From Escherichia phage SelmaRatti, in the sequence record MZ501103: a stretch of DNA of 64,000 bases. One strand, given 5' to 3'. The notes beneath the pieces are model-generated. The model did not search any database. It was given only the letters and a program-made list of their open reading frames with translations, and was not told the origin of the DNA. Both the position numbers and the translations under genes were made by a program. This document shows, in pieces, positions 47,845 to 64,000 of the stretch; positions within the stretch are counted from its first letter, which is position 1, and each line of letters begins with the position of its first letter.

Positions 47845-48048
47845 ATGCAAGTATATGTCCTTACTAGAGATATAAATGAGTATAATCAGGATGGTGAGTA
47901 TTTTGTAAAAGTATTCGCTGAAAAGCCAAGTAAACAACAATTATTAGATGCGGGGGTACCCGAAGACCAGGCTAAGTGTATACTACAAGATAAAGAGTTT
48001 ACCGGGGATGCTTACGAATGTTTCTACCTTAACTGTGAGACTATTTAA
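47845..48048 (+). CDS. hypothetical protein (67 aa)
   Basis: ORF. Confidence 0.45.
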   Translation: MQVYVLTRDINEYNQDGEYFVKVFAEKPSKQQLLDAGVPEDQAKCILQDKEFTGDAYECFYLNCETI

Positions 48049-48490
48049 TATGAGAGAGAAAGTAAATGAATTATTAATCGAGGAAGCTAACAACTTTCCA
48101 ATAAATAGATTCATTAAATCGGATGGATCTATTAATAGAACTAAGATTAAGCAGCTACATCCCGACTTTCAACAAGAAGCACTAAACCTTATATTTATCA
48201 AGAAAGCTGTTGCAGTTCATGGAGCTTTCTTTGGGTATGAACGTGTAAATTATAAGACAATGCAACAGCAAGTCGAGATCTACTGCCCGGACCATGATGG
48301 TTATTACTGGCAAACTGCTAGATCTCATTTAGAAGGGCACGGTTGTCGACTGTGTGCACACAAGGTTGTGCAGCGTGTCACGGATTATGGAACTTATACC
48401 GTGCCATCATGTTACCATAAATTTGTAATTGACGATAATCATATAGTTTGGTATAATAAGTTTTCAAAGTTAAGAATGGAGATAAAATAA
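47948..48490 (+). CDS. hypothetical protein with Cys/His cluster (true start probably Met near 48050)
   Basis: CPDHDGYYWQTARSHLEGHGCRLCAHK putative zinc-binding segment. Confidence 0.45.
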   Translation: MRGYPKTRLSVYYKIKSLPGMLTNVSTLTVRLFNMREKVNELLIEEANNFPINRFIKSDGSINRTKIKQLHPDFQQEALNLIFIKKAVAVHGAFFGYERVNYKTMQQQVEIYCPDHDGYYWQTARSHLEGHGCRLCAHKVVQRVTDYGTYTVPSCYHKFVIDDNHIVWYNKFSKLRMEIK

Positions 48491-48670
48491 TGGAAACACT
48501 TTTTTAATGCTCGTAGGTTCGTTAGTAGTTATATTAGCACTTCTACTAATCTGCAATATTCTTAATAATAAGAATTTAGAGTTAAAGTGTGAGAACCAAA
48601 TCCTTAATCGTGAACTTACACAATATAATGTAGCAGCTCGCAAGCTGTTAGACAAACTGGAGAATAAATA

Positions 48671-49282
48671 ATGTTTACACAACAAACCATTAAAGTAGTA
48701 GCAGATCATGAACTCGACACATGGGATTACAGCTTTAAAGATCTGACTGCTACAGTACAGTTTAAATCTATGCAACTGTCGTTTTTGCACACTGATCTTC
48801 AAGGTTGTAAAGAGTTTCAGGCTAAGCTCATCGATGCTCGTAAGATTTTTGGTACGGCTCGCATCCCGGCTGATAACCTGATTAATGCACTAATCGATGC
48901 AGGGTACAAACTCGTGAAGACCGAGGTGAACCGCCCTAGTACTCCAGTGACTATTAGAGATCCGTGGCAGTCAGGGACAATCTCAATGCTGAATAACTCC
49001 GATAAAAGATTAATGTCGGATATGCACAATGTTCATTGTGGTGGTGTGGTAAGCAATACGCAATCATATAAGTTTGGTGAAGATTGCGGCCCTTCTGTAC
49101 AGCTGCAACATACCCAAGAGGCTTTTGAATCTGATATGCGAAGCGTAGCACCTGAGGATGCTGGAGTTTCTAGGAGTTCTGTTTGTACTATTCATTTTAA
49201 TAATCTTAGGCCTGGGAATATAAATGATACTATCCTTGAAGCGTTGGGGGCTGCTCTTAATGAAGATAAGAGAGGTAGTTAA
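48671..49282 (+). CDS. hypothetical protein (203 aa)
   Basis: ORF. Confidence 0.5.
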   Translation: MFTQQTIKVVADHELDTWDYSFKDLTATVQFKSMQLSFLHTDLQGCKEFQAKLIDARKIFGTARIPADNLINALIDAGYKLVKTEVNRPSTPVTIRDPWQSGTISMLNNSDKRLMSDMHNVHCGGVVSNTQSYKFGEDCGPSVQLQHTQEAFESDMRSVAPEDAGVSRSSVCTIHFNNLRPGNINDTILEALGAALNEDKRGS

Positions 49283-49629
49283 TGATATTTGGTAAAACAA
49301 AAATAACTTCTGCTGGTGACGATTTAATTACTCTTAGTCTCTACTATAAAGATGAAAATGTAGAATTAGAAACATTAGAGTATATTCTAATAACTACTAA
49401 TAAGCCAAAAATAGGAGAGTTATTTGATATAATATCTATAGTCTCTGCTAGGGAAGATATTCCAAGTATAACACCAAAGAATATAGCTCACTTAGCACAA
49501 CAATTAGGAATCCTATGGTATAAAGTAGATCTTCCAGCTAAAGAAAGAACCAAAGGAACCTTTGCAGAAGTTGCAAGAAAACCTAAGCCAGAAAAGAAAG
49601 AAACAGGGGAGCAAGCGTCTGATATATGA
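49282..49629 (+). CDS. hypothetical protein (115 aa)
   Basis: ORF. Confidence 0.5.
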   Translation: MIFGKTKITSAGDDLITLSLYYKDENVELETLEYILITTNKPKIGELFDIISIVSAREDIPSITPKNIAHLAQQLGILWYKVDLPAKERTKGTFAEVARKPKPEKKETGEQASDI

Positions 49630-50339
49630 TTAAAGAAGCTGAAAAATTAAAACGTCTCATCCAGTTAGCGCGTGGTGCTACACAAAAGAGTCTTTCACAG
49701 CTAACTGATGAAGAAAAATATGCAGTAATGTTTTTAGGAGATCATTATCCTGCTAAGTGGGATAAGGGTAAGATCAAATATGATCGTGATGCAAAACAAG
49801 TAGTTTGGTCAGGCTCATATGTAGAGGTGAATAAAGCATTAAAGGCTTTAGATCCTGCAGCAAAAGGTTTCTCTTCTAATGCTATTCATATTCTAATTGA
49901 TGAAGATCTCCCAAGATTTAAGGAAGCATCATTTAAAGAAGCATTAGCTAGCGAAGATCTTATTCCTTTCAAACATGGCAAATATGCACATCTTCCTCCA
50001 CTAGAAAAAGAGAAACCAACTCTAGTTAAAGATGAAGTTTATCGTGGGATTGGCACAATGCTAGCGAGTTTGACTGTAGCTCTCCATAAAGATCTAGAGT
50101 TAACGCCCTTAGAAAATGCTGTGCATTTCATGTGCCATAAATATGAGGATACATTTAAAGAACTATGTAAGTCGCTAGGAATGCCAAGTTACACGATATT
50201 AAACTACGCTCCTGAGTATACTAGAGCAGCTCGCGGAACTATGGATTACGATGATACAGGATCAACTGCTTCCTATTTAGCAACTTATATCTACTTCGCA
50301 TCCTTAGGTATCAAACTCAAATCCAAGAAGGAGGAATAA
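49626..50339 (+). CDS. hypothetical protein (237 aa)
   Basis: ORF. Confidence 0.55.
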   Translation: MIKEAEKLKRLIQLARGATQKSLSQLTDEEKYAVMFLGDHYPAKWDKGKIKYDRDAKQVVWSGSYVEVNKALKALDPAAKGFSSNAIHILIDEDLPRFKEASFKEALASEDLIPFKHGKYAHLPPLEKEKPTLVKDEVYRGIGTMLASLTVALHKDLELTPLENAVHFMCHKYEDTFKELCKSLGMPSYTILNYAPEYTRAARGTMDYDDTGSTASYLATYIYFASLGIKLKSKKEE

Positions 50340-50356
50340 AAGTTAACAAAATTTTC

Positions 50357-50386
50357 TTGACAACTCATTGCGGCACATGTTATAAT
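50357..50386 (+). promoter_or_regulatory. sigma70-type promoter (TTGACA-18-TATAAT)
   Basis: TTCTTGACAACTCATTGCGGCACATGTTATAATAATC; no ORF follows. Confidence 0.65.
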
Positions 50387-50393
50387 AATCTCA

Positions 50394-50560
50394 TAGATTA
50401 ACAACTACTCTAGTTGATTAACTCTAGGGGCGATGATTATTACACGAATGTCTCGTATAGCTTGCGGCTGAGCAACAGCGGTATGACGGCATGAGTACTC
50501 ACGTAATTAATCACGCGCCCCCAGGAGAGACTCTCATGAAATTGGGGGTCTCTTTTTCTT
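50394..50560 (+). ncRNA. candidate small non-coding RNA (about 165 nt) bounded by promoter and terminator
   Basis: Strong promoter at 50357-50386 and terminator hairpin AGAGAC...GTCTCT plus TTTTTCTTT at 50525-50560, with no ORF of 20 codons or more between. Confidence 0.45.
50525..50560 (+). terminator. rho-independent terminator
   Basis: GAGAGACTC-loop-GGGGGTCTCT then TTTTTCTTT. Confidence 0.65.
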
Positions 50561-50639
50561 TATATTATTTAAATATTTAAATATTTTTAATGGCAATATC
50601 TGTGTTCAAGATGATACACCGGTTGCCGCTCATCTGCTA

Positions 50640-51300
50640 GGATGGCACAACACTTTCTAGTAGACTCCTAAGTTTCTAGGAAAACTCTCACTTTCTAGGG
50701 CAGTTTCTCTCCAACGTTACATATCCTAGGCCGGTTTTCCTATACAGGGCGGTTATGGGGAGGGCGGTTATTTCTAGAAGACATTTTTTGAAAACATTTT
50801 TCCAGAAATTACTGTCGGATTTGCACCTTGTGTTTCTAGAAATTTATGGTCGGATTTGCACAATCGCCTAAGTTTTTAGGAACATATAATCTCCTGAAAA
50901 TGGCAGCATTATTTCGGGCCGAAGGCCCATGATTGCCTGAGTTTTTAGGGCCACAGAAATTTTCACTTGTCAAGCTATTTTGCCCCATTTTGCTAATAAA
51001 ATTTTACTTTTTCTGCACCTATCTCAAATTAACCCAAATTATCTCAACTCTTCCCCAAAATCCCCGCAAATCGGGTGCCCCGCACCAAACATGCGCCCCT
51101 CTCACAGTTCCCTCAAATTTCTCTCGCTATCTCACCTTCACTACAAACCTATACAATCACACACCATCTCATCGAAGTCACAAAAATTTCATCGGATTCG
51201 CACAGCTCAACACATGTCGGATTTGCACATACTCTAGCTAATTCCACAGGATTCGAACGCAGTTCGTGATTGCTGGAGTTTTTAGGGAGACAGATTCGTC
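50640..51300. repeat. dispersed short repeat family, about 8 copies of (A/G)GTTT(C/T)TAGG
   Basis: Copies near 50646, 50663, 50684, 50774, 50833, 50871, 50942, 51283. Confidence 0.55.
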
Positions 51301-51415
51301 ACTCTCACGAATTTATAAATTTTTTTCGGGTCGGATTTGCACACTACCAAAAATTGTCGGATTTGCACATACATGCCCGCACGTAACACCCGTGGAGCAT
51401 TGTCGGATTTGCACA
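50814..51415. repeat. iteron-like direct repeats, 7 copies of GTCGGATTTGCACA
   Basis: Copies at 50814, 50849, 51192 (variant TCGGATTCGCACA), 51216, 51330, 51356, 51402, all same orientation. Confidence 0.8.
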
Positions 51416-51420
51416 AAAGC

Positions 51421-51438
51421 GCAGGGCAATTGCCCTGC
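51421..51438. repeat. perfect 18-bp palindrome GCAGGGCAATTGCCCTGC
   Basis: Exact reverse-complement symmetry. Confidence 0.8.
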
Positions 51439-51443
51439 TCGCC

Positions 51444-51615
51444 TGAATGCGAATGATAATGAGAATCAATCTCGTTTAAAAAGCTGAATGCGAATGATAA
51501 TGATTCGCATTTAAGAAAGGGAATGAGAACTATTCAAGAAGTGAAATGATTCTCATTTAAAAAGTGGAGTGATTATCGGTTAGCTAGTGAAATGCGAATG
51601 ATAATGATTCGCATT
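51444..51615. repeat. three copies of AATGCGAATGATAATGA, two forming palindromes AATGCGAAT-N7-ATTCGCATT
   Basis: Copies at 51444, 51485, 51591; related half-sites AATGATTCTCATT at 51543. Confidence 0.75.
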
Positions 51616-51648
51616 TAAAAATGGAAGTGAGAAACACTATTATTTAAG

Positions 51649-51730
51649 TTATCCACAGACTTATCAACAGCACGATTTGACTTGACAGAATCCTAGCCAT
51701 TTTGAGGCGTTATTAACAGACTTATCCACA
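51649..51730 (+). promoter_or_regulatory. cluster of DnaA-box-like 9-mers (TTATCCACA x2, TTATCAACA, TTATTAACA)
   Basis: Exact consensus TTATCCACA at 51649 and 51722; one-mismatch boxes at 51661 and 51710. Confidence 0.6.
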
Positions 51731-51738
51731 GCTTATCC

Positions 51739-51758
51739 TACTGTATAAATATACAGTA
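51739..51758. promoter_or_regulatory. LexA-box-like palindrome TACTGTATAAATATACAGTA
   Basis: CTGT-N8-ACAG with AT-rich spacer, matching the SOS-box consensus. Confidence 0.6.
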
Positions 51759-51998
51759 TTCCTATGTAGTGAATAATTCTAATATAGGCCTAAAACGTCC
51801 TGAATCGCATTCTAACGCGTTTAATTTTGGTGGAGGTATTTTAATATGGGGAAATTTGAGGAAGGCCATAAAAGGTGGGGCCAGTAGTTGCGCCCCGTGA
51901 TTATTAGTGGTAGATATATTTTTGCCAATAGCGGCGGATACTGTCGCCACCAGCGGAATCATTCACAGCCTCAACATTACCCGCGAAAATATATAATC

Positions 51999-52343
51999 TC
52001 ATTGTGCCACCTTTCGAAACGCTATTTCAATACTATCCGCAGTGGATTGAATATATGCGCCTTTCATTATCAGGCGCTCGGTGCATATCTTGCGAAAAAT
52101 GTTGATAAAATCATCTTCATTTTCTGCAATTAATGCCTCACCCATAACCTGAACGTCACAAGACCCAAAAGTTAAAAATTGAAACGCTAGTTCACGGGCG
52201 ACAACGGCAGAAATTTTATAATGCGCCTTACCCTCATAAATATTAACCACGCCTTTATAAACTGGTGAAAGCTGATTTAAATAGTTTGCTAATAATGCCG
52301 GACGGCAATTAGCAACAAAACGATTGCCCTCATAAATAACCAT
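51999..52343 (-). CDS. hypothetical protein (114 aa), last gene of the inverted-repeat-flanked module
   Basis: ORF with strong SD GGGAGG. Confidence 0.55.
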   Translation of the reverse strand: MVIYEGNRFVANCRPALLANYLNQLSPVYKGVVNIYEGKAHYKISAVVARELAFQFLTFGSCDVQVMGEALIAENEDDFINIFRKICTERLIMKGAYIQSTADSIEIAFRKVAQ

Positions 52344-52466
52344 TTTATAACCTCCCGATCAGATAGCCTGATAAAAGCATAAAGATACCCAACGAAAGAG
52401 GGTCATTCTTAAATAAGGTGGCGATAAAACCGCCAGCCATTGCAAGGAGAACAACAATAACGCTTT

Positions 52467-52679
52467 TCATAGTACCCCACGAAACGCAGCGTAAAAGGTG
52501 GCAAAATGTTTAACCGTTTCAGCGATCACGTTGCCGCGCTTATCAAATTTTTTCTCGGTAACACGAAAGGCATTTTTGTTACGTGCTACATATTCGATTT
52601 TACAATCTGGACGCTCGAACGTGTTAACATCCACCAGCTTAAAGCCTTTCGAACGTGCAAGAGAAACGTTGCGTATCAT
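52467..52679 (-). CDS. hypothetical basic protein (70 aa)
   Basis: ORF with SD AAGGAG. Confidence 0.5.
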   Translation of the reverse strand: MIRNVSLARSKGFKLVDVNTFERPDCKIEYVARNKNAFRVTEKKFDKRGNVIAETVKHFATFYAAFRGVL

Positions 52680-52681
52680 TT

Positions 52682-52864
52682 TTATTCTCCTTTACTAATC
52701 ATGCAGCCCAGCAGATAAGAAAATACAGCAATGCCAGCGCCAATAGTAACCATTGGTTTTGTATTTACTAAACCGCAATAAGAATCTTGAATACCATAAG
52801 CGGTGGCGAAAAGAGTCAGAATAGCGCCCAAGATACCCGCCAGAATAGCTCGAAAAATAACCAT
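52682..52864 (-). CDS. small two-helix membrane protein (60 aa)
   Basis: MVIFRAILAGILGAILTLFATAYG and VTIGAGIAVFSYLLGCMI hydrophobic helices; SD AGGGGA. Confidence 0.5.
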   Translation of the reverse strand: MVIFRAILAGILGAILTLFATAYGIQDSYCGLVNTKPMVTIGAGIAVFSYLLGCMISKGE

Positions 52865-52913
52865 TTTTATTTCCCCTAGTTAGTGGGTGATACTGTATAT
52901 CCCCCGTTATTAC

Positions 52914-53144
52914 TTACATTAAAATAATTTTTGCAGCTTGTTTTTTGGTGCAATGTTCCGCTTTCAATTCATCCAGCAAAAAACCAGCCGTTGGCTGATC
53001 AATTTGATCATTATCATAAAGCGCCTGAATGGTAGTGTAAGTTTTAGCAATGCCGTATTCTTGCACCATTTCATGAATGATGACGCGGTTAGATACCCAG
53101 CCTTGCGCGGTGAACAGATGACTAGCAGAAGAATAAGCAACCAT
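52914..53144 (-). CDS. hypothetical protein (76 aa)
   Basis: Start set at the Met preceded by SD GGAGG rather than the longer ORF-track start at 53201. Confidence 0.5.
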   Translation of the reverse strand: MVAYSSASHLFTAQGWVSNRVIIHEMVQEYGIAKTYTTIQALYDNDQIDQPTAGFLLDELKAEHCTKKQAAKIILM

Positions 53145-53261
53145 TTTAAGCCTCCAAATTTTTGGGAAAATTTTCAGTCCACCGTTTCGGTGTAAAGGCA
53201 TTATAACAAAAAAGGCCGCCGATTATGGCGACCTTTACAAAACTTTACATTAGGTTAATTA

Positions 53262-54236
53262 TTACTCGCTTTCGCTGTTTTGGGTAAAGGTGGAAATATC
53301 AATACCTTTCACCATTTCATCAATCATTTCAGCGATATTAAAACTTTGCACCATTTCCAGCATTGCCGCCTCCATAGCCGCTCCTGCTACCGCTTTCGCT
53401 TTCGCATTAGTCGGGGCGTACTGGTCAACCGCTACACTCAGCAGGTTAGCGATCACTACACGACCAATCGGCGTATCAATATACCCTTTAATCATAAACG
53501 GTGCTTTTTTAGCCGCTACTTTCGTAATTTGAGTCAGTGCAATTTTACCCGCTTCCAGTTTTGCAGCGTTTACAACAGCAGACTTATTGGCGGCAACGAT
53601 AGAAGATACTTTAGTCATGATATTTCCTTTATTTTCAGTAGTTTGAGTGCTAGAATTTACAGCATATTTTTTCGTGTTGTCAATAGGCTGATTTTCCTCC
53701 TTCCAGAAGGAAAAGCCCGCGCTTTCGATAACCCCATCATATATGTATGGGTATATTTCCGACGGTAGCAAAAAATTGCCATCATCATCAAAGGCCATTA
53801 CAGCCGCCAGACGATAACCGTCACTAATTGACCGATTCCAGCCAACGGATAAATAACTCCAAAATGAATCAAGAAAGTTTTCAACGTCATAAAGGTCCTT
53901 ATCATAAGGCTCATAATTTTCTATCGAAAAAGCTTCTAAGCCCACCCCAGTATCATAGGCTTTTACTGTGCTACCTTTTACAATTATAAAATCAGCATCC
54001 AGCCCCCTACTAGAAAGTAGGTGATTATCTCGATTATATAAAACAAGCGTTGCCCCTTGCTTGTACAGTTGCAAAAAACTACTCATATCATAGGCGTCAT
54101 ATTCATCAAAAAAGTTTTGATGAATAGTTTCAGCCTTGTTAACAAAGTGTTTGATGATGGATGTTCTGCTACCATCCAGCAGGTTACACAGCGAACTTTT
54201 TAAGACGGCTGCGTTATCTGGTTTATATAGCCTCAT
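53262..54236 (-). CDS. hypothetical protein (324 aa) with Ala/Lys-rich amphipathic helical C-terminus
   Basis: SD GGGAGG; C-terminal 130 aa of repeated amphipathic/hydrophobic helices (GRVVIANLLSVAVDQ, AVAGAAMEAAMLEMV). Confidence 0.6.
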   Translation of the reverse strand: MRLYKPDNAAVLKSSLCNLLDGSRTSIIKHFVNKAETIHQNFFDEYDAYDMSSFLQLYKQGATLVLYNRDNHLLSSRGLDADFIIVKGSTVKAYDTGVGLEAFSIENYEPYDKDLYDVENFLDSFWSYLSVGWNRSISDGYRLAAVMAFDDDGNFLLPSEIYPYIYDGVIESAGFSFWKEENQPIDNTKKYAVNSSTQTTENKGNIMTKVSSIVAANKSAVVNAAKLEAGKIALTQITKVAAKKAPFMIKGYIDTPIGRVVIANLLSVAVDQYAPTNAKAKAVAGAAMEAAMLEMVQSFNIAEMIDEMVKGIDISTFTQNSESE

Positions 54237-54351
54237 TTGTTGGCCTCCCTCGTTAATCGGTAGAAGAATGATAATGGTATTTTCTTTCTAGGGCAAGTAT
54301 TATTTTACCTTTTTATTTTCCTTGCCTAACGCCTAGTTTTATGCTAACCGC

Positions 54352-54423
54352 GCAGCGGTGTAATAAAGAGCAAAACACGGCGAAGCCACCAGGCCGACGC
54401 GTCGAGGCTTTACTTTAATATTA
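54352..54423 (-). promoter_or_regulatory. structured 5-prime leader candidate (long imperfect inverted repeat) upstream of the 324-aa gene
   Basis: GCAGCGGTGTAATA pairs with TATTACACCGCAGC across about 45 nt containing the palindrome GACGCGTC. Confidence 0.35.
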
Positions 54424-54497
54424 CACCGCAGCGTTTTGCTCGTTAGAAAGCGATTTAGGCCGCGTAAAATTGATTGCAGTTGTTAACACTACCTTTC

Positions 54498-54517
54498 TAC
54501 CCTGTATATTTATACAG
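54498..54517. promoter_or_regulatory. LexA-box-like palindrome CCCTGTATATTTATACAGTA
   Basis: CTGT-N8-ACAG; reverse complement nearly identical to the box at 51739. Confidence 0.6.
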
Positions 54518-54526
54518 TAGGAAAAC

Positions 54527-54596
54527 CTGTGGATAAGCCCTTATATCACCACCTATTGTGTCAAATCATTTTGTGCTGTGGATAACTTTGTGGATA
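54527..54596 (-). promoter_or_regulatory. cluster of three DnaA-box consensus 9-mers (TGTGGATAA on plus strand)
   Basis: Exact TTATCCACA on minus strand at 54527-54535, 54576-54584, 54588-54596. Confidence 0.65.
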
Positions 54597-54635
54597 ACTT
54601 AAATGATAGTGGTTCTCACTTAAACCGATAGTTTC

Positions 54636-54716
54636 TTATAGTTATTATTATAGTAGTGATTATTTTTATAGTTATTATTTTTATAGTTATTATTTTTATA
54701 GTTATTATTTCTATTT
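54636..54716. repeat. AT-rich tandem repeat, about 4 units of ATAGTTATTATTTTT
   Basis: Head-to-tail units; roughly 90 percent A+T; 40 bp from the DnaA-box cluster. Confidence 0.75.
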
Positions 54717-55453
54717 AATTTATAAGTATATTATATAATATGAAATAGTTAGTTGGCTAATGAGATTTTCCGGGATTAGTAGTCTGCTAATAGTTCAGGC
54801 TGTTACAATCCACCAGCATGATTATCATCCTAGCAATTATTAGTCTGCTATCTTTCTAATACACAACAACAAATAAAAGTCAATTAATTTATTTCATAAA
54901 ATAACTCAATGCCCCTTGATTTTAAAAAGTCAATACCTTTTACAACTATTTTTCAATTTTGCTTTTGTTAAATATTTGTTAAATCGAAAATGAGCCGCCT
55001 AAAACGCCCTAGAAAGCGGTAAAATTTTCAGGTATGCCATTGCATAGCCTACCCTCGTTTATCGTCACCACGAGCTTTTTAGATTTTGTCAAGTAGGGGA
55101 GAGCAAATATAAATGAAAAAATTACTTGCCTATTTGCTTTGTTTTGTGGTATTCGCGCGCCCGTTTCTTTTAATTTTAGGCCGTCACCGCACGCCATCCG
55201 GTGAATCGTGTCTTTACGTTTCTTTACAAAAATAAGGTTGCGCCATTTTCGGGAATCCCCTATTATTTATCACGTAGGGCGGCAATGACGAACTACACGG
55301 CGGGAAGTTTACCGCCGCGCTCTTTAAAAATTGGGTATATCTTAAAGTCTATCGGCGGTAAACTTATCTATTATAAGGAATCGACGATATGAAACAAACT
55401 TTATTAATCACCGGTAAACCAGCCAAAAATTGGATGGCAATACTAGAAAGCTG

Positions 55454-55481
55454 TTGACAATAGCTCAACAATCCGTAAAAT
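55454..55481 (+). promoter_or_regulatory. sigma70 promoter (TTGACA-16-TAAAAT), pre-early operon P1
   Basis: Near-consensus -35 and -10 elements. Confidence 0.6.
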
Positions 55482-55587
55482 ATCGATTCACGCAGTACAA
55501 GAAAGGTAGCCAGCAAGGTTTAGAAATGGTCTGGCGAAATATTATGATTGACTTGAAAGAAAATCATAAAAAACTGCAAAAAATTGT

Positions 55588-55616
55588 TTGACAACCTAGC
55601 CGATAGGCTTTAAGAT
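55588..55616 (+). promoter_or_regulatory. sigma70 promoter (TTGACA-17-TAAGAT), pre-early operon P2
   Basis: Consensus -35 with 17-bp spacer, about 140 bp upstream of first pre-early ORF. Confidence 0.6.
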
Positions 55617-55754
55617 GTACCCCGTAGTAACTGCTCTTTAACGACTTGGAAAACGATAATGTTTAGGCTAACTCCTAGTGGATTTTTTCTTATTATCTGC
55701 TACTTTCTAGCAGATAATGCGGAACAATCCATCAAATAACTTGGAGTTTATACC

Positions 55755-56006
55755 ATGAAAAACGTTATTACCGCGCCTAAAATTGGTCAATCCGTCTTCA
55801 TTCCTTTCGTTACTAAAACGGATGAATTAACCGGAAAAGCCGAACGTATTAAAGGTGCGGCGCTTATGCCGTTCGATACAATCGATGCGGTATACGCTGA
55901 AACGGAACGTAGTAACAACGGAAAAACTATTTATAGCGTTCGGGTTAAATCTGGCGACGCTGTAAAGGTTGTTCAACGTAACGAAAAATGGGAAGCCGTA
56001 GCGTAA
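55755..56006 (+). CDS. hypothetical pre-early protein (83 aa)
   Basis: ORF with conserved TGGAGTT RBS context. Confidence 0.55.
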   Translation: MKNVITAPKIGQSVFIPFVTKTDELTGKAERIKGAALMPFDTIDAVYAETERSNNGKTIYSVRVKSGDAVKVVQRNEKWEAVA

Positions 56007-56100
56007 TAGTGTTACTTTATATTCCTCTGTTTCAGGGGAATATAATAATTAACATTAGGTTAATCTAATCCCTTAAATTAAATTAATTGGAGTTATAATC

Positions 56101-56517
56101 ATGGCTAACGTTAAAACCGAAAAATCTGCAAAATTCGCATGGAATGAAGAAAACACCCAGCAGGCTGTTACCATGTATCAGCAGCTCATCAATGAAAACG
56201 GCTTGGAGTTCGCCAACAGCGACGGCCTGAGAGAGATCGCAAAAGCAGTGGGCGCGGCTTCTCCCGTATCCGTTCGGTCAAAATTGTCCAGAGCGAAAGT
56301 CTATCAAAAAAGCGATAAGCCTCGCAAGGTTGGCGGCGGCAGTTCAATTCGCAAGGCGCACTATGTACGCGTTATTGCAAAACATGCTATTGATTCCGGC
56401 ATTATCAAAGACGCTGACGATTTAGCAAGCCTTGAAATCGCAAAATTGGAAACGCTGGACGCCGTGGCGCAACTATTGGGCGTTGCCGATGAAGTAAAGC
56501 AGGCCGCAGGTGAATAA
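56101..56517 (+). CDS. hypothetical pre-early protein (138 aa)
   Basis: ORF with TGGAGTTATAATC-ATG context. Confidence 0.55.
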   Translation: MANVKTEKSAKFAWNEENTQQAVTMYQQLINENGLEFANSDGLREIAKAVGAASPVSVRSKLSRAKVYQKSDKPRKVGGGSSIRKAHYVRVIAKHAIDSGIIKDADDLASLEIAKLETLDAVAQLLGVADEVKQAAGE

Positions 56518-56574
56518 ATTTAATTAGCTGGGAATATTCCCCGCTATAATTTCCCTTTGACTGGAGTTATTAAA

Positions 56575-56772
56575 ATGATCTTTTACCCCACTGAATCGCT
56601 AATTTTAGGCTTATTTATTATGGCGGCCTCATTATTATTTGCTTATTTTCAAAATGATTTAGATTCGTATTATTTTAAGCGAAAAGCTAAATTGGCAAAG
56701 CGTTTAGGTCTGATTTGTTTTATTGCCGCCATTGCTCTTGGTGTAAGTTCAAGCCTAATGCCTATTAGTTAA
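56575..56772 (+). CDS. small membrane protein (65 aa)
   Basis: ATG 56575 after CTGGAGTT RBS; two TM helices. Confidence 0.5.
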   Translation: MIFYPTESLILGLFIMAASLLFAYFQNDLDSYYFKRKAKLAKRLGLICFIAAIALGVSSSLMPIS

Positions 56773-56869
56773 ATATTGCAAATTATAACGCCACTCATTT
56801 GCGGCGTTATATCTGGCAATATTTGCCAATAACAAACGTTTTTAATCCCTTCAATGGAGTTTTATTACT

Positions 56870-58534
56870 ATGGTTATTTCCGCAGAAAAACAAATCCAGA
56901 TTCTCAACCTTGCCGCTGATTTTAATTTTTATGGTAAACGTCTGCGCGCTACTAAGCTGGAAGTTTGTGACGATATATCAAAAGCTGTTTATGATACGCC
57001 GAAACATTCCACCGCTATTTGTGACTGGCTGGAAGCAAATAAGCCAGCGAAACCGAAAGCGGCAAAAGCTGAAAAGGCGATTAAAAACGATGATCGCCCC
57101 GAAGCGGCTGGGATTGTTTCTAGTACGGTGGAGCAATGGGAAGTAAAACAAGGTAAACGCTTTATTATTACATCGATTCAGAATAATACGTTCCCACATA
57201 AAAACTTTTTAGCCTCGCTTGAACAATATGCCCAGTTTATCGGCGCTGATTTGCTTGTTTCTAAGTATATTTATAATAAAAACGGATTCCAAAATGGAGA
57301 AGGGGCAGACGGTATCAAATATGATTCCGCATTTGATAAATATATCTGCGAGAAAAATGTATTTTTAAACAATCGCCGTTTTGCTTTCATGGCTGAAATT
57401 AATGTTTTGCCAACCGCAGATTATCCGCTTTCTGGATTCGCTGAAACTGCAACGGCTTTAAATATTGAAGGGCTGGCAATTGGTCACGCTAAAATTACCG
57501 CCGAAAGCGTGCCAGCTTTAAAAGGTGGAGTAGTGCGCCGTATGTATTCAACCGGAACGGCAACGTTAAAAAACTACATTCAGCAGAAAGCAGGACAAAA
57601 GGCCGGGGCGCTGCATAATTTCGGGGCGCTTATTGTTGAGTTCGACGACGACGGGGAATTTTTTGTTCGCCAGCTTGAAACGATGGACGAAAGCGGCGTT
57701 TTTTACGATTTGAATATTTACGCCACTCCCACCGGATGCTATGAAACAACGGGGCACGTTTTAGGTTTACAATATGGCGATATTCACGCCGAAAAATTAG
57801 ATGATGATTGTGCCGTTGCGTCATGGGCTGGCGAAAATAGCTTGCTTGATATTTTAAAGCCTAAATATCAGTTTGTGCATGACGTGCATGATTTTACATC
57901 GCGCAATCACCACAACCGCGCGTCTGGTGTATTCCTAGCGAAACAGTATGCAGCCGGACGTGATAAAGTTCTGGATGATCTCATCGACACGGGGCGCGTG
58001 CTGGAATCAATGGAACGCGATTTCTCGCAAACAATCATCGTGGAGTCTAACCATGATCTGGCGCTTTCCCGCTGGCTGGATGATCGTAATGCTAACATTA
58101 AAGACGACCCAGCAAACGCGGAACTATATCACCGCCTTAATGCTGCAATCTATGAAGCTATTGCAGAAAAAGACGACACTTTCAACGTGCTAGATTATGC
58201 GCTGCGCAAGGTTGCAGGCTGTGAATTTAACGCCATTTTCCTTACTACTGATCAATCTTTCAAGATTGCAGGCATTGAATGCGGCGTACACGGTCACAAT
58301 GGCATTAACGGAAGCCGTGGCAATCCGAAACAGTTTAAGAAATTGGGCAAATTAAACACCGGACACACTCACACGGCTAGTATTTACGGCGGCGTATATA
58401 CCGCTGGCGTGGCTGGTTCCCTTGATATGGGTTACAACGTTGGCGCGTCAAGCTGGACGCAAACGCATTTAATTACCTATGCGAACGGCCAGCGCACTTT
58501 GATTGACTTTAAAAACGGCAAATTTTTCGCGTAA
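56870..58534 (+). CDS. A1: A1-like pre-early protein, SbcD/Mre11-like metallophosphoesterase
   Basis: 554 aa; phosphoesterase motifs GDIH, HDVHD, ESNHD, GVHGHNG, GHTHT; position in pre-early operon upstream of dmp. Confidence 0.6.
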   Translation: MVISAEKQIQILNLAADFNFYGKRLRATKLEVCDDISKAVYDTPKHSTAICDWLEANKPAKPKAAKAEKAIKNDDRPEAAGIVSSTVEQWEVKQGKRFIITSIQNNTFPHKNFLASLEQYAQFIGADLLVSKYIYNKNGFQNGEGADGIKYDSAFDKYICEKNVFLNNRRFAFMAEINVLPTADYPLSGFAETATALNIEGLAIGHAKITAESVPALKGGVVRRMYSTGTATLKNYIQQKAGQKAGALHNFGALIVEFDDDGEFFVRQLETMDESGVFYDLNIYATPTGCYETTGHVLGLQYGDIHAEKLDDDCAVASWAGENSLLDILKPKYQFVHDVHDFTSRNHHNRASGVFLAKQYAAGRDKVLDDLIDTGRVLESMERDFSQTIIVESNHDLALSRWLDDRNANIKDDPANAELYHRLNAAIYEAIAEKDDTFNVLDYALRKVAGCEFNAIFLTTDQSFKIAGIECGVHGHNGINGSRGNPKQFKKLGKLNTGHTHTASIYGGVYTAGVAGSLDMGYNVGASSWTQTHLITYANGQRTLIDFKNGKFFA

Positions 58535-58591
58535 TTAAATTATTTCCCTAGCGGCTTGAAATATAGCCGCTATTATAGGAGCTAAATTAGA

Positions 58592-58849
58592 ATGAAAGTT
58601 ACATTACCCAAAACATTGGACGAAAAAGTATTCATTTCACCGGATGAAATGGAATCCGGTGAAGTTTACAGCTTCGGGCCTATCCTAGCCGCCAAAACTA
58701 ATACGGATGGCATTATTACGGTCAATTATCGTGATAATGATATTGTTCCTTTTGAAGATGATGACGCTTTTTATGAGTGGCTAATCGTTAATAATTTACC
58801 CGTAGACGGTGAATTAACGCCATATCAAATGCAAATTATCATTAAATAA
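58592..58849 (+). CDS. hypothetical pre-early protein (85 aa)
   Basis: ORF with RBS AGGAG. Confidence 0.5.
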   Translation: MKVTLPKTLDEKVFISPDEMESGEVYSFGPILAAKTNTDGIITVNYRDNDIVPFEDDDAFYEWLIVNNLPVDGELTPYQMQIIIK

Positions 58850-58860
58850 AGGTATCAATA

Positions 58861-59151
58861 ATGAAAATTAATTTACCTAGTAGTGAGTTTTCCCCTAAAT
58901 CCCTTTTATTAGATGATATTATTAATCAATATTCTTACATAAACGGGGAAGTATATCGCGCTTGTTCTGACTTCCTAGATTATCCCGATTATCCAATCTA
59001 TAAGGGTGATTTCATTATACCTGTTTATAATGGTGTGCTAGTAGTATGTAAAGCTGGGGCTATTGTTATAGATAGCTGCACATTATCACAAGAAACGTTT
59101 AAAGTGCCGATAGAGTTAACTAATTATTCTACTAGTATCACAGTACAATAA
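58861..59151 (+). CDS. hypothetical pre-early protein (96 aa)
   Basis: ORF. Confidence 0.5.
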   Translation: MKINLPSSEFSPKSLLLDDIINQYSYINGEVYRACSDFLDYPDYPIYKGDFIIPVYNGVLVVCKAGAIVIDSCTLSQETFKVPIELTNYSTSITVQ

Positions 59152-59187
59152 ATTAAGTCCCTTATTAAATTAATTGGAGTCATAAAC

Positions 59188-59583
59188 ATGGATAAATCTA
59201 ACCGTATCCCATTCGATCGCGCTCAGTCTTCTATTGTTCTGGTTTATTCTAATGGTGAACGTTACCACGTCGAGGCGGGGCACGTTATTGGTGAATTGCT
59301 AGACTTTAACGAGGCGCTACAGGTTACTACTTTCGCCTATACCACGGGCAAGGCAGCAAGCCGCATTAAAGCGAAAGGCGTTTATATTGATACCATGAAA
59401 CAAGAAACCATCATTATTGACGCTGTAAAATCAGGTCTAGCCTTTGCAGTAGTCGCACCTTGCCCCGCTTGCCTCGATGATCAATTGATTAGCGCAAAAG
59501 TATATACTTGTGCGGGTATTCGTTCCAATGTATCCGGTGAGGATGTTAGTTTTATCGCTGATGCGTTGGCTTATGGTCTTTAA
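59188..59583 (+). CDS. hypothetical pre-early protein (131 aa), possible A2-like partner
   Basis: ORF with TTGGAGTCATAAAC-ATG context; A2 assignment is positional guess only. Confidence 0.45.
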   Translation: MDKSNRIPFDRAQSSIVLVYSNGERYHVEAGHVIGELLDFNEALQVTTFAYTTGKAASRIKAKGVYIDTMKQETIIIDAVKSGLAFAVVAPCPACLDDQLISAKVYTCAGIRSNVSGEDVSFIADALAYGL

Positions 59584-59596
59584 TAGTTAATTTATT

Positions 59597-59620
59597 ATTG
59601 CCCGCTGATAAATAGCGGGC
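59597..59620 (+). terminator. hairpin, weak terminator or attenuator
   Basis: TTGCCCGCT-loop-AGCGGGCAA without a strong T-run. Confidence 0.35.
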
Positions 59621-59663
59621 AATGCTGAATTAATCTAATCCCTTAAATGGAGAACGTAACAAA

Positions 59664-60398
59664 ATGAATCAAGTTAAAACGAATATTACCCGCAATTTCC
59701 CGCATATTTCCCGCGTCATGATTTGGGACTTAGACGGCACTATCGTTAATTCATTCCATCGCGTAGCGCCTTGCTTTGATGATAACGGGAATCTAGATTT
59801 AAATAAGTATTCCCGCGAAGCCTGCAAACATAATTTAATAATGCAAGATACTTTATTGCCGCTTGTTACATATATGCGCCAGTGCATGAATGACGCAAAT
59901 ACTTTAAACATTATCTGTACAGCTCGACTGATGAGAAAGTCGGACTATTATTATTTGCGTAAACAAGGCTTACGAGGGGGTGTGAATAGTAATATCCGTG
60001 TATTTTCCCGCGATACACTACACAAATATTTTAAAGCTGATAAGGTTAGCGAAATATACCACAGCAAAGACGCAGTATATAAATCTTATTATTTTGAATT
60101 ATTTAAACAGTTATATCCGAACGCTGATTTTACAATGATTGATGATCATAAAGGCGTGCTATCAGCGGCGGCATCATACGGATTTAAAACGCTGGACGCG
60201 CAAGCCGTTAACGATATTCTATCAATCGGCGTGGCATTGATAGGTGAAACCTTTATCGATGAATCTCTTGAGGATGATAATGATTATCAGTTCCTAGCCG
60301 ACCGTCTGCAATTATGTTGGGAAGGTATGACCGAGGAAGAACGCGCAGAATATAGTTGCAGCCCGCAACAATATATTGAGAAACTAAAAGTTGCGTAA
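59664..60398 (+). CDS. dmp: 5-prime-deoxyribonucleotidase, HAD-family (Dmp-like)
   Basis: 244 aa; HAD motif I in VMIWDLDGTIVNS. Confidence 0.7.
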   Translation: MNQVKTNITRNFPHISRVMIWDLDGTIVNSFHRVAPCFDDNGNLDLNKYSREACKHNLIMQDTLLPLVTYMRQCMNDANTLNIICTARLMRKSDYYYLRKQGLRGGVNSNIRVFSRDTLHKYFKADKVSEIYHSKDAVYKSYYFELFKQLYPNADFTMIDDHKGVLSAAASYGFKTLDAQAVNDILSIGVALIGETFIDESLEDDNDYQFLADRLQLCWEGMTEEERAEYSCSPQQYIEKLKVA

Positions 60399-60417
60399 TA
60401 ATTAAAGTTGAAATTGT

Positions 60418-60451
60418 TTCACCCTGCAATTAAAATGGTTGCAGGGTGAAA
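60418..60451. terminator. long hairpin between convergent dmp and HNH genes
   Basis: TCACCCTGCAA-loop-TTGCAGGGTGA. Confidence 0.45.
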
Positions 60452-60573
60452 TAGTTAGCAGGGTAATAGTAACGGGGGTGGCGGTTAGGAGACTAAGTAT
60501 TCTCCCACTAGCCACTGCACCCACCCACGCGTACGTAATCCAAAGAATTTGGTAAAAGTCATTTTAGTGCTAA

Positions 60574-61071
60574 TTAATTATGATTTGCAAACTCGCCGTG
60601 ATAATGCTCCCTGGCTTTTTTAAGCTCTTTTTCAGCCTGCTCAATGGTTTTAAAAGTTCCTACGGTAATTCTATTGCCATTTACACGTAGTTTTGCTTCG
60701 AACTTTTCCTCCCCACGTTTATATACCCCCTTAACTCCGGTAGATTCATTTTTCCATCCCGAAGAGTTTTTGCCATTCTCTGCATTTGTTGCTTTACGCA
60801 GGTTATTCCACCTATTGTTGAAAGGGTCTTGATCTTTATGATCAATGAGAAACTCACTAGGATCTTCTCCTGTCATGTATAGATACGCTACCAGATGGGC
60901 CTTATATAACCCATTACTGCCCATTGATAGGGATATTCCTGAGCTATTTCTACTGCCTGCTGGCTTACCTTTACGACTCCCTGAGTTCCAAGTAAATATA
61001 CCCGTCTCTGGATCATAATCAAATTTCTTCTGGTATTCTGCTAAGGGGAGTAGAGGTTTATGATTTGCCAT
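60574..61071 (-). CDS. HNH homing endonuclease (AP2-like)
   Basis: LIDHKDQDPFNNRWNNLRKATNAEN HNH motif. Confidence 0.7.
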   Translation of the reverse strand: MANHKPLLPLAEYQKKFDYDPETGIFTWNSGSRKGKPAGSRNSSGISLSMGSNGLYKAHLVAYLYMTGEDPSEFLIDHKDQDPFNNRWNNLRKATNAENGKNSSGWKNESTGVKGVYKRGEEKFEAKLRVNGNRITVGTFKTIEQAEKELKKAREHYHGEFANHN

Positions 61072-62117: not shown

Positions 62118-62202
62118 ATTTATCTCTCCATTTCTATTTTATGAATATATTATAGCAAAGTAGAGAGATAAAAGCAAATACATTTTTATAATAGGAGATT
62201 AT

Positions 62203-63990: not shown

Positions 63991-64000
63991 AGGAGGAAAT

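What the first reader, a model, noticed from the sequence alone, without database searches (positions are those of the whole stretch)
50640..51640. Dense iteron and palindrome field between the early genes and the pre-early region
Seen in sequence: seven same-orientation copies of GTCGGATTTGCACA (50814-51415), about eight copies of (A/G)GTTT(C/T)TAGG (50646-51290), a perfect 18-bp palindrome at 51421-51438 and three copies of AATGCGAATGATAATGA, two forming AATGCGAAT-N7-ATTCGCATT palindromes (51444-51615). No ORF over 100 aa overlaps the repeats. Established knowledge: repeats, palindromes and DnaA boxes are described for the T5 first-step-transfer injection-stop locus, and iterons mark plasmid and phage origins. 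Inference: this is the injection-stop and/or origin-like locus, with the 14-mer a candidate binding site for a phage or host protein.
Basis: partly seen in the sequence, partly recalled or inferred. Interest (0 to 1): 0.7.

Follow-up and report, generated by a model that had tools for sequence, protein, structure and literature searches.

The report
T5-type injection-stop and genome-end region
This repeat-filled non-coding stretch is this phage's copy of the long-described phage T5 "injection stop signal" region, so it is not new, although how the region works is still unknown.

Summary
The window is a T5-like phage (Tequintavirus), read in reverse orientation relative to T5 records. Positions 50640-51640 are homologous to T5 "Repeat Region 3", the injection stop signal (iss), described in 1987, annotated repeat by repeat in 2005, and compared across 25 relatives in 2020.

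- **14-mer:** it is T5 "direct repeat D".
- **18-bp palindrome:** it is T5 palJ and overlaps the major 7.9% nick site, GCGCAGGG.
- **AATGCGAAT palindromes:** they are T5 direct repeat C and palindromes E-I.

This position agrees with T5, with BF23 (PhageTerm) and with five other genomes.

The 14-mer is sharply bounded and always in one orientation. A shared core (ATTYGCAC) is kept across three Demerecviridae subfamilies, including Vibrio phages, and always near that boundary. Its flanks differ between lineages, while the DnaA boxes do not. This suggests a phage-encoded binding protein.

The injection-stop reading is supported by homology. The origin reading is not supported. The mechanism remains unproven, and a role in packaging or end formation for the 14-mer array is a serious rival. 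Novelty: already known. Interest: low to moderate.

The parts
50357..50386 (+). Perfect sigma-70 promoter (TTGACA, 18-nt spacer, TATAAT, with TG before the second hexamer). It lies downstream of the last early gene and drives the structured RNA unit listed next.
   Evidence: 12 of 12 hexamer matches. The extended -10 TGTTATAAT is conserved in relatives.
50393..50566 (+). Candidate structured non-coding RNA: a 5' hairpin, a long rod-like hairpin and an intrinsic terminator (50523-50556). The central part is hypervariable among relatives.
   Evidence: z = -6.2; six unrelated sequence variants at the same locus all fold the same way, with z from -5.1 to -7.7. There is no Rfam match.
50600..50660 (.). 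Conserved non-coding block at the early-gene side of the field, 92% mean identity.
50654..50698 (+). Three TTTCTAG motifs spaced 19 bp apart. T5's direct repeat D copy 9 would lie at about 50690 but is deleted in this phage.
50746..50771 (+). Two copies of AGGGCGGTTAT, 15 bp apart, nearly invariant in relatives.
50813..50862 (+). Two 14-mer iterons (T5 direct repeat D copies 8 and 7) that lie outside the terminal repeat, in unique DNA. They are 35 bp apart.
   Evidence: They are 92% and 100% conserved across the 15 aligned relatives.
50893..51006 (.). Most conserved block of the whole intergenic region, close to 100% identity. It straddles the genome end and contains the hairpin GGGCCGAAGGCCC (50916-50928).
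50947..50948 (.). Terminal-repeat boundary, which is the physical right end of the virion DNA (...GAGTTTTTA | GGGCCACAG...). The repeat runs from 50948 to about 60521, roughly 9.57 kb.
   Evidence: The T5 LTR end at 10139 maps to 50948. The BF23 PhageTerm boundary at 9743 maps to 50948 (PMC10644984). Six genome records end at 50947-50948. The left end was placed.
50950..51190 (+). Strand-asymmetric segment, C-rich and G-poor (19 G in 241 bases, GC skew -0.56 to -0.70), starting within a few bases of the repeat boundary. It contains T5 direct repeat A copies 2 and 3.
51190..51415 (+). Five 14-mer iterons inside the terminal repeat (T5 direct repeat D copies 6, 5, 3, 2 and 1). T5's copy 4 is replaced here by an unrelated small inverted repeat at 51296-51311.
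51419..51426 (+). Major single-strand nick site 1 (7.9%), motif GCGCAGGG. The nick is expected between 51418 and 51419 on the + strand.
   Evidence: T5 annotations. Mapping. The same motif occurs on the + strand at 37901 and 27477, at the places homologous to T5 nicks 2 and 3.
51421..51438 (-). Perfect 18-bp palindrome, equal to T5 palJ. Its left arm is part of the nick motif. On the - strand it reads as a terminator-like hairpin facing the pre-early genes.
   Evidence: HdH2 annotates a terminator at the homologous place.
51443..51633 (.). T5 direct repeat C and palindromes E-I (Davison's 66-bp DRE repeats), including the 9-N7-9 palindromes AATGCGAAT-N7-ATTCGCATT. They resemble Fur boxes (14-16 of 19 matches). 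The approximate shear point of first-step-transfer DNA (T5 9618) maps to about 51470.
   Evidence: Fur-box similarity. Shear point.
51626..51758 (+). T5 IR D'-spacer-IR C' module. It holds two pairs of DnaA boxes (TTATCCACA at 51649 and 51722; variants TTATCAACA and TTATTAACA) and the palindrome TACTGTATAAATATACAGTA.
   Evidence: Davison 2020.
54487..54621 (-). Inverted partner of the DnaA-box module (T5 Repeat Region 2, IR C-spacer-IR D), with three TTATCCACA boxes on the - strand.
   Evidence: (arms of 67 and 51 nt, 85% and 82% complementary).

Best explanation
The field is this phage's copy of the large non-coding control region at the inner end of the T5-type terminal repeat (T5 'Repeat Region 3', annotated as the injection stop signal). 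It is a composite of adjacent cis elements.

Reading from the pre-early genes towards the early genes, the elements are:
1. Two pairs of host DnaA boxes, with an inverted partner 2.8 kb away.
2. A set of AT-rich 9-N7-9 palindromes.
3. The GCGCAGGG nick site inside an 18-bp palindrome.
4. Five copies of a 14-bp iteron.
5. A G-poor 240-bp stretch.
6. The physical end of the genome at 50947|50948.
7. Two more iterons in unique DNA.

Likely mechanism (inferred, not shown):
- During infection the left end of the DNA enters first.
- Transfer pauses when the DnaA-box and palindrome modules have just reached the cell. These modules are probably held by host proteins or by DNA structure.
- The 14-mer array lies immediately distal to the pause point. 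It is the binding array of a phage-encoded, family-wide conserved protein. The pre-early DNA-binding protein A2, with A1, is the best candidate. This protein would act on the paused DNA to restart transfer.

Confidence by claim:
- Identity of the region with the T5 iss region: about 0.95.
- The 14-mer is a specific protein-binding site: about 0.8.
- That site serves injection pause or restart rather than end formation or packaging: about 0.4.
For: Homology and published record
- 456 phage records match, nearly all T5-like. The best are HdH2 (91%) and BF23 (87%).
- T5 and S114 annotate the homologous stretch as the injection stop signal.
- T5's direct repeats D and C, palindromes, nick and LTR end map one for one onto the window.
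- The inverted partner of the DnaA-box module is present.
- The field is better conserved (84% mean column identity, repeats 90-100%) than the flanking RNA unit (63%) or the neighbouring small ORFs. This agrees with Davison 2020.

The iteron
- The logo is sharply bounded: (G/A)TCGGATT(T/C)GCACA.
- There is no conservation in the flanks and there are no reverse copies among 134 sites.
- Spacing is conserved among close relatives.
- The shared core (ATTYGCAC) is kept in a ~70%-identical relative, in Pectobacterium phage DU_PP_V, and in Vibrio phages BBMuffin and Skimmer, whose A1 is only 32-33% identical.
- In the Vibrio phages the iteron ends in GCACCT instead of GCACA and the 5' TCGG is only partly kept, while the true DnaA boxes remain TTATCCACA. 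That pattern is expected if the binder is phage-encoded and co-evolves with its site.

Candidate binder and position
- A2 (56101-56517) matches PHROG 1725 'DNA binding protein', and A1 matches 'DNA transfer protein'.
- The approximate shear point (T5 9618) maps to about 51470, so the iterons lie just distal to the pause.
Against: - No experiment has assigned a function to any of these repeats. The BF23 paper says functional studies are lacking, and a 2026 PNAS paper calls the mechanism poorly understood.
- At the pause the iterons would still be in the tail or envelope channel, so a cytoplasmic protein could not easily reach them.
- The array straddles the genome end and occurs at only one of the two repeat boundaries. 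That fits a packaging or end-formation signal at least as well.
- Copy number varies from 6 to 12. This phage lacks two of T5's nine copies in the field, so no single copy is essential.
- The A2 model gave no informative fold match.
Confidence: 0.75

Rival explanations
1. The 14-mer array and the near-invariant block around 50893-51006 are the packaging-initiation and end-formation signal of the phage.
- The left end is injected first, so by analogy with other tailed phages the right end is packaged first (inference from memory, not checked here).
- Terminase would therefore start at the concatemer junction by cutting at 50947|50948.
- A small terminase or accessory protein bound to the same-orientation iterons on both sides of the cut would position the nuclease.
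- The injection-stop function would then reside only in the DnaA-box and palindrome modules further in.
For: - The genome end maps inside the array in T5, in BF23 (PhageTerm) and in five other genomes.
- The 114 bp around the cut are the most conserved part of the intergenic region.
- Iterons flank the boundary in a ~70%-identical relative (6 inside, 3 outside) and in Vibrio phage BBMuffin (-234 to +205).
- None occur near the other repeat boundary at about 60521.
- Repeated binding sites next to a cut site are the usual layout of lambda cosB and SPP1 pacL/pacR (established knowledge, recalled from memory).
Against: - In Vibrio phage Skimmer, a close relative of BBMuffin, the recorded boundary lies 57 bp beyond the last iteron. 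All eight copies are therefore on one side, so 'centred on the cut' is not robust, or one of the two records is imprecise.
- No T5 terminase recognition site has been defined in the papers I could read.
- The nearest inner iteron is 243 bp from the cut.
- Nothing links the small terminase to this motif.
Confidence: 0.3
2. The field is an iteron-type replication origin or partition site. A phage initiator would bind the 14-mers, host DnaA would bind the nearby boxes, and the AT-rich stretch at 50553-50600 would melt.
For: - Same-orientation iterons, DnaA boxes, an AT-rich run and a strong promoter all lie within 1.4 kb.
- This combination resembles plasmid oriV regions (established knowledge).
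Against: - Spacing is irregular (25-344 bp), not the regular roughly 22-bp phasing of plasmid iterons.
- No Rep-like gene is adjacent.
- Davison 2020 cites electron-microscopy studies that place T5 origins near the genome centre, and notes that replication genes are not expressed during first-step transfer.
- The DnaA boxes are 230-330 bp from the nearest iteron, on its far side from the AT-rich run.
Confidence: 0.07
3. The palindromes are mainly transcription terminators and RNA-level signals between the converging pre-early (- strand) and early (+ strand) transcription units, and the repeats have no DNA-level role.
For: - The scan calls palJ and one AATGCGAAT palindrome terminator-like on the - strand.
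- HdH2 and T5 annotate terminators in the homologous region.
Against: - The 14-mers form no hairpins.
- The T-runs after the palindromes are weak.
- Termination does not explain the DnaA boxes, the nick motif, the genome end, or family-wide conservation of an asymmetric 14-mer.
Confidence: 0.1
4. The repeats are chance matches or part of an unrecognised protein-coding gene.
For: A 102-aa ORF with a TTG start overlaps two iterons.
Against: - There are 10 iteron hits against 0.27 expected by chance.
- The ORF frame is broken in 9 of 15 relatives.
- The region is annotated as non-coding in T5, BF23 and S114.
Confidence: 0.01

Closest known systems
Phage T5 injection stop signal / 'Repeat Region 3' of the left terminal repeat (Heusterspreute 1987; Wang 2005, AY587007; Davison 2015 and 2020)
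   Same: - Same position between pre-early and early genes.
- About 86% sequence identity.
- Same order of DnaA-box inverted repeats, direct repeat C palindromes, palJ with the nick, direct repeat D iterons and the LTR end.
- Same inverted partner in Repeat Region 2.
   Different: - This phage has 7 of T5's 9 direct repeat D copies in the field. Copies 4 and 9 are lost.
- palJ is a perfect 18-bp palindrome here but imperfect in T5.
- The RNA unit on the early-gene side has an unrelated central sequence.
Terminase recognition sites with repeated binding boxes next to the cut (lambda cosB R sites; SPP1 pacL/pacR)
   Same: Several short protein-site-like repeats lie within a few hundred bp of the physical genome end, on both sides of it, and at only one of the two repeat boundaries.
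   Different: - No terminase binding has been shown.
- Distances to the cut are larger (86-467 bp).
- The phage has 9.6-kb direct terminal repeats rather than cohesive ends or headful packaging.
Iteron-type plasmid origins (pSC101, P1, RK2) and oriC-like DnaA-box clusters
   Same: Same-orientation iterons together with DnaA boxes and an AT-rich run. The paired DnaA boxes, separated by 3 bp, recall oriC, as Davison 2020 noted.
   Different: - There is no adjacent initiator gene.
- Iteron spacing is irregular.
- The iteron is 14 bp rather than 17-22 bp.
- The literature places T5 origins elsewhere.
Repeat arrays beside the T7 terminal repeat at the concatemer junction
   Same: Arrays of short direct repeats sit next to a direct terminal repeat boundary in a phage that injects one defined end first (recalled from memory, not tested here).
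   Different: The T7 repeats are short heptamer-like units next to a 160-bp repeat. There is no sequence relation and the phage family is different.

Membership tests
T5 injection stop signal region (Repeat Region 3) | Lies in the large non-coding region at the inner end of the terminal repeat, between pre-early and early genes | tested here: met
   Early genes end at 50339 (+ strand) and pre-early genes start at 51999 (- strand). Neighbouring genes match T5, BF23 and HdH2. A1 and A2 were identified.
T5 injection stop signal region (Repeat Region 3) | Sequence homology to the T5 region annotated as iss | tested here: met
   About 86% identity to T5 in the BLAST match; 78% across the whole aligned 1.7-kb stretch, flanks included. 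The iss features of AY543070, AY692264 and S114 lie on the homologous stretch.
T5 injection stop signal region (Repeat Region 3) | Ordered set of named repeats: IR D'/C' with paired DnaA boxes, direct repeat C palindromes, palJ, direct repeat D | tested here: met
   One-for-one mapping. Only direct repeat D copies 4 and 9 are missing.
T5 injection stop signal region (Repeat Region 3) | Inverted partner of the DnaA-box module in Repeat Region 2 | tested here: met
   Arms 51625-51691 / 54555-54621 and 51721-51771 / 54487-54537.
T5 injection stop signal region (Repeat Region 3) | Acts in cis to halt DNA transfer at about 8% of the genome | not testable with these tools
   Needs mapping of first-step-transfer DNA in infected cells.
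T5 major nick site | GCGCAGGG on the nicked strand at the position homologous to a T5 major nick | tested here: met
   51419-51426 on the + strand. The same motif on the + strand at 37901 and 27477 matches T5 nicks 2 and 3.
Terminase recognition / genome-end site | Coincides with the physical end of the packaged DNA | tested here: met
   T5, BF23 (PhageTerm) and five other genomes place the end at 50947|50948.
Terminase recognition / genome-end site | Specific binding and cutting by terminase subunits | not testable with these tools
   No terminase data are available, and the terminase genes are not in this window.
Iteron-type replication origin | Regularly phased iterons with an adjacent initiator (Rep) gene | tested here: not met
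   Spacing is 25-344 bp. No Rep-like family was found among the 10 neighbouring proteins tested.
Iteron-type replication origin | Replication initiates at the locus | not testable with these tools
   The literature cited by Davison 2020 places origins near the genome centre.
DnaA box cluster | Matches to TT(A/T)TNCACA, clustered | tested here: met
   All 5 TTATCCACA boxes in the window lie at 51649 and 51722 (+ strand) and at 54528, 54577 and 54589 (- strand). The 14-mer itself is only a near match (ATTTGCACA) and allows C at the normally invariant T4 position in 23% of copies, so it is not counted as a DnaA box.
Fur box | Close match to GATAATGATAATCATTATC; binding by Fur | tested here: inconclusive
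   Matches of 14-16 out of 19. Six of the window's 15 positions at >=14/19 lie in 51440-51625, against 0.04 expected from local shuffles. Similar matches sit at the same relative place in three divergent enterobacterial relatives. The consensus was taken from memory, the test was post hoc, and binding was not tested.

The most novel reading that the evidence does not exclude
The 14-mer would be the recognition site of a conserved Demerecviridae-encoded protein that marks the terminal-repeat boundary. That would make the array the undefined T5 packaging-initiation and end-formation signal. The pause of DNA entry would instead be set by host-factor sites further in: the invariant DnaA boxes, and the Fur-box-like palindromes that I found no report of in the searchable literature. 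Injection arrest and genome-end formation would then be two separable functions packed into one 1.2-kb region.
Probability: 0.25. Interest if true: 0.55.

Novelty: already known. Interest (0 to 1): 0.3.

Why it matters
How T5 stops DNA entry after 8% of the genome and then restarts it has been open since 1968, and this region is the accepted cis-acting candidate. Finding it again in another T5-like genome adds little on its own.

Three points from this check could sharpen experiments:
- **One short, well-defined target.** The 14-mer core is kept across three subfamilies while its flanks differ between lineages. It is therefore a good probe for pull-down experiments, and it points to a phage-encoded binder.
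- **Two possible functions to separate.** The genome end lies inside the iteron array. Mutants need to be scored both for two-step transfer and for packaging.
- **Host mutants to test.** The invariant DnaA boxes and the Fur-box-like palindromes name specific host mutants that can be tested.

Tried and rejected
- **Rfam:** a search of 48000-54000 at a permissive threshold found nothing relevant.
- **The 102-aa ORF:** rejected as a gene because its frame is not conserved.
- **14-mer as a DnaA box:** considered because ATTTGCACA is one mismatch from TT(A/T)TNCACA. Rejected because GTCGG is equally invariant and position 4 tolerates C.
- **TTTCTAGG as part of the nick signal:** considered because the motif sits next to the nick-2 site at 37888-37908. 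Rejected because nicks 1 and 3 lack it.
- **Fur-like box near the left genome end (60270):** it lies in dmp codons EDDNDYQF, so coding probably explains it.
- **'Iterons centred on the repeat boundary':** holds for the T5-likes and BBMuffin but not for Skimmer, so it is stated only as 'within about 560 bp'.
- **Consensus folding of the neighbouring RNA unit:** failed because the centre is unalignable. The variants were folded one by one instead.
- **A2 protein:** no hit in the local Pfam copy, although its homologues carry precomputed PF26822. The AlphaFold model (pLDDT 81) is all-helical and has no significant PDB match; the best E-value is 0.58, with weak Myb/HTH-like hits only.
- **Shared motif at the two cut sites:** comparison of the left and right repeat boundaries showed none.
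- **Davison 2015:** the paper could not be retrieved.
Full report
**1. What the window is**

The 1.7 kb around the finding matches 456 phage records. Nearly all are T5-like (Tequintavirus and Epseptimavirus). The best are Escherichia phage HdH2 (91%) and BF23 (87%).

The window runs in reverse orientation relative to T5 records. Early genes on the + strand end at 50339 and pre-early genes on the - strand begin at 51999. Further right lie A2 (56101-56517), A1 (56870-58534) and dmp.

The left end of the terminal repeat maps to about 60521. It is followed directly by receptor-binding and Cor genes from the right end of the genome. The source is therefore an assembly in which the two terminal repeats were collapsed into one.

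**2.

- **14-mer GTCGGATTTGCACA.** There are 5 exact copies and 2 degenerate copies in the field. All 10 window hits at <=2 mismatches are on the + strand between 48778 and 51415, against 0.27 expected.
- **(A/G)GTTT(C/T)TAGG.** There are 4 exact copies in the field, and 7 in the window against 0.86 expected. The count of about eight holds only for the looser TTTYTAG core.
- **Palindromes.** The 18-bp palindrome and the three AATGCGAATGATAATGA copies, two of them forming 9-N7-9 palindromes, are as described.
- **One correction.** A 102-aa ORF with a TTG start (50933-51241) overlaps two iterons. Its frame is broken in 9 of 15 relatives. It arises because this stretch has only 19 G in 241 bases.

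**3. It is the T5 injection-stop region, already described**

T5 records annotate the homologous stretch as 'injection stop signal', and Salmonella phage S114 does the same. The Wang et al. record (AY587007) names each repeat. I aligned T5 to the window and transferred the names:

| T5 feature | Window coordinates |
|---|---|
| Direct repeat D copies 4 and 9 | absent in this phage |
| palJ | 51421-51438 |
| Major nick 1 (7.9%) | GCGCAGGG at 51419-51426 |
| Direct repeat C, palindromes E-I | 51451-51620 |
| IR D'-spacer-IR C' with paired DnaA boxes | 51626-51758 |
| LTR end | 50948 |

The inverted partner of the DnaA-box module (T5 Repeat Region 2) is at 54487-54621.

Davison's 2020 preprint compares this region in 25 T5-like phages. 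It lists nine direct repeat D copies but assigns them no function. It proposes, without experiments, that membrane-bound DnaA holds the DnaA boxes and that A1/A2 cut to the right of them. The BF23 genome paper (2023) states that functional studies of these sites are lacking. Two 2026 papers still describe the mechanism as unknown.

**4.

- **The genome end is inside the field.** The T5 LTR end and the BF23 boundary determined with PhageTerm both map to window 50948. Six genome records (T5 and five others) stop at 50947-50948. Two iterons therefore lie in unique DNA and five lie inside the repeat. One of the AGTTTTTAGG motifs straddles the cut.
- **The most conserved block surrounds the end.** The 114 bp around the cut (50893-51006) are the most conserved part of the whole intergenic region.
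- **A skewed segment starts at the boundary.** Immediately inside the repeat lies a 240-bp segment with GC skew of -0.56 to -0.70.
- **The palindrome overlaps the nick site.** The same motif, GCGCAGGG, occurs on the + strand at 37901 and 27477. These are the places homologous to T5 major nicks 2 and 3.

**5. The 14-mer looks like a protein-binding site conserved across the family**

- **Logo.** 134 copies from 16 phages give (G/A)TCGGATT(T/C)GCACA. Information content is near maximal at every position except the first and ninth, which allow two bases, and there is none in the flanks. There are no reverse copies.
- **Close relatives.** Spacing is conserved (35, about 343, 25 or 35, 81 or 71, 31, 26, 46). 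Copy number is 7-9.
- **More distant relatives.** A 122-kb contig at about 70% identity has 9 copies with different spacing, 6 inside and 3 outside its repeat. Pectobacterium phage DU_PP_V (Mccorquodalevirinae, A1 69% identical) has 6 copies. Vibrio phages BBMuffin and Skimmer (BBMuffin is classified in Ermolyevavirinae; A1 32-33% identical) have 7-8 same-strand copies of ATT(T/C)GCACCT. These lie in the same place relative to the gene order and within 560 bp of the recorded repeat boundary.
- **Inference.** In the Vibrio phages the neighbouring DnaA boxes are still exactly TTATCCACA, whereas the iteron's 3' end has changed from GCACA to GCACCT and its 5' TCGG is only partly kept. A host-factor site stays fixed while the iteron flanks differ between lineages. 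I take this as an argument that the iteron's partner is phage-encoded.
- **Candidates.** The pre-early DNA-binding protein A2 (PHROG 1725) and a terminase subunit. An AlphaFold model of A2 (pLDDT 81) is all-helical and has no significant match to solved structures, so this did not help.

**6. How it most likely works**

Shown:
- Homology to the T5 region.
- The positions of the nick motif, the genome end and the DnaA boxes.
- The site-like character of the 14-mer.

Inferred:
- DNA entry pauses once the DnaA-box and palindrome modules have entered the cell. The approximate shear point, T5 9618, maps to about 51470.
- The iteron array just beyond the pause point is where a phage protein acts.

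Two readings compete for the iterons:
- **Restart of transfer by A2/A1 (probability about 0.4).** The array's position next to the pause fits this reading.
- **Positioning of terminase for the cut at 50947|50948 (probability about 0.3).** The left end is injected first, so the right end is probably packaged first, by analogy with other tailed phages. That would make this boundary the packaging start. The facts that the array flanks the genome end, that it is absent from the other repeat boundary, and that the surrounding block is extremely conserved all fit this reading.

The two readings are not exclusive. Against a strict 'centred on the cut' picture, the Skimmer record has all of its iterons on one side.

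An origin or partition role is unlikely. No initiator gene is adjacent, spacing is irregular, and the literature places T5 origins near the genome centre.

**7. Leads noticed along the way**

- **Fur-box-like palindromes.** The AATGCGAAT palindromes match the Fur-box consensus at 14-16 of 19 positions. Six of the window's 15 positions at >=14/19 lie in this 186-bp stretch, against 0.04 expected from local shuffles. Similar matches sit at the same relative place in three divergent enterobacterial relatives but not in the Vibrio phages. No paper in the searchable library contains both 'phage T5' and 'Fur box'. The consensus came from memory and the test was post hoc, so this is a lead only.
- **A candidate structured RNA.** Just left of the field, a perfect sigma-70 promoter (50357-50386) and a terminator (50523-50556) bracket a 174-nt unit that folds with z = -6.2. 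Relatives carry at least six unrelated central sequences at this locus. All fold into the same plan of a 5' hairpin, a long rod and a terminator, with z from -5.1 to -7.7. There is no Rfam match.

**8. Verdict**

It is already known and was catalogued in detail for T5 and its relatives. The origin reading is not supported. The open question is the mechanism, and re-finding the region does not change that. The new points here are modest refinements that suggest cleaner experiments: the genome end inside the array, family-wide conservation of the iteron core with lineage-specific flanks, and the Fur-like boxes. Interest 0.3.

Noticed in passing
window 50357-50566 (+): A perfect sigma-70 promoter and an intrinsic terminator bracket a unit of about 174 nt that folds into a 5' hairpin plus a long rod-like hairpin (z = -6.2). 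Relatives carry at least six unrelated central sequences at the same locus, and all fold the same way (z from -5.1 to -7.7). There is no Rfam match and no annotation in T5, BF23 or HdH2. This is a candidate hypervariable structured RNA.
   Followed up: partly
window 51443-51633; also L132 12609-12633, L076 1750-1861, L115 9813-9837: The AATGCGAAT-N7-ATTCGCATT palindromes and their neighbours match the Fur-box consensus GATAATGATAATCATTATC at 14-16 of 19 positions, far more often than local shuffles give. Similar matches sit at the same relative place in divergent enterobacterial relatives but not in Vibrio phages. No paper in the searchable library contains both 'phage T5' and 'Fur box'.
   Followed up: partly
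window 60270-60294: A second Fur-box-like sequence (16 of 19) lies about 250 bp from the left genome end. It is conserved in T5, BF23, HdH2 and DT571/2, and one divergent relative (L115 197-221) has an 18 of 19 match. It falls in dmp codons EDDNDYQF, so coding may explain it.
   Followed up: partly
window 50950-51190: A 241-bp stretch starting within a few bases of the terminal-repeat boundary has only 19 G (GC skew about -0.6 to -0.7). The asymmetry is conserved in T5. No explanation was found.
   Followed up: no
window 27477, 37901, 51419 (+); 7100 (+): GCGCAGG(G) occurs on the + strand at the places homologous to T5 major nicks 3, 2 and 1. A fourth + strand copy at 7100 may be another nick site. 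Only one copy (20280) is on the - strand.
   Followed up: partly
window 49015-49028 and 48778-48791 (+): Degenerate 14-mer copies (GTCGGATATGCACA, GTCGTTTTTGCACA) lie inside the 203-aa early gene 1.8-2 kb from the array. The first is conserved in several relatives and corresponds to T5 'direct repeat D copy 10'.
   Followed up: partly
window 60574-61071 (-): A 165-aa ORF right next to the left terminal-repeat boundary. Its C-terminal region, read from the raw sequence, suggested an HNH/AP2-type homing endonuclease. Relatives annotate an HNH endonuclease within 59500-64000, and T5 has no similar sequence next to this boundary.
   Followed up: no
window 50948-60521 and beyond: The window reads from early genes through one copy of the terminal repeat straight into the receptor-binding and Cor genes of the right genome end. 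The source assembly is therefore circularly permuted, with the two roughly 9.6-kb repeats collapsed into one.
   Followed up: yes
L131 13770 against L133 4590: Two closely related Vibrio phages (BBMuffin and Skimmer) record their terminal-repeat boundary about 300 bp apart relative to nearly identical iteron arrays. Either one record is imprecise or the cut site has moved.
   Followed up: no
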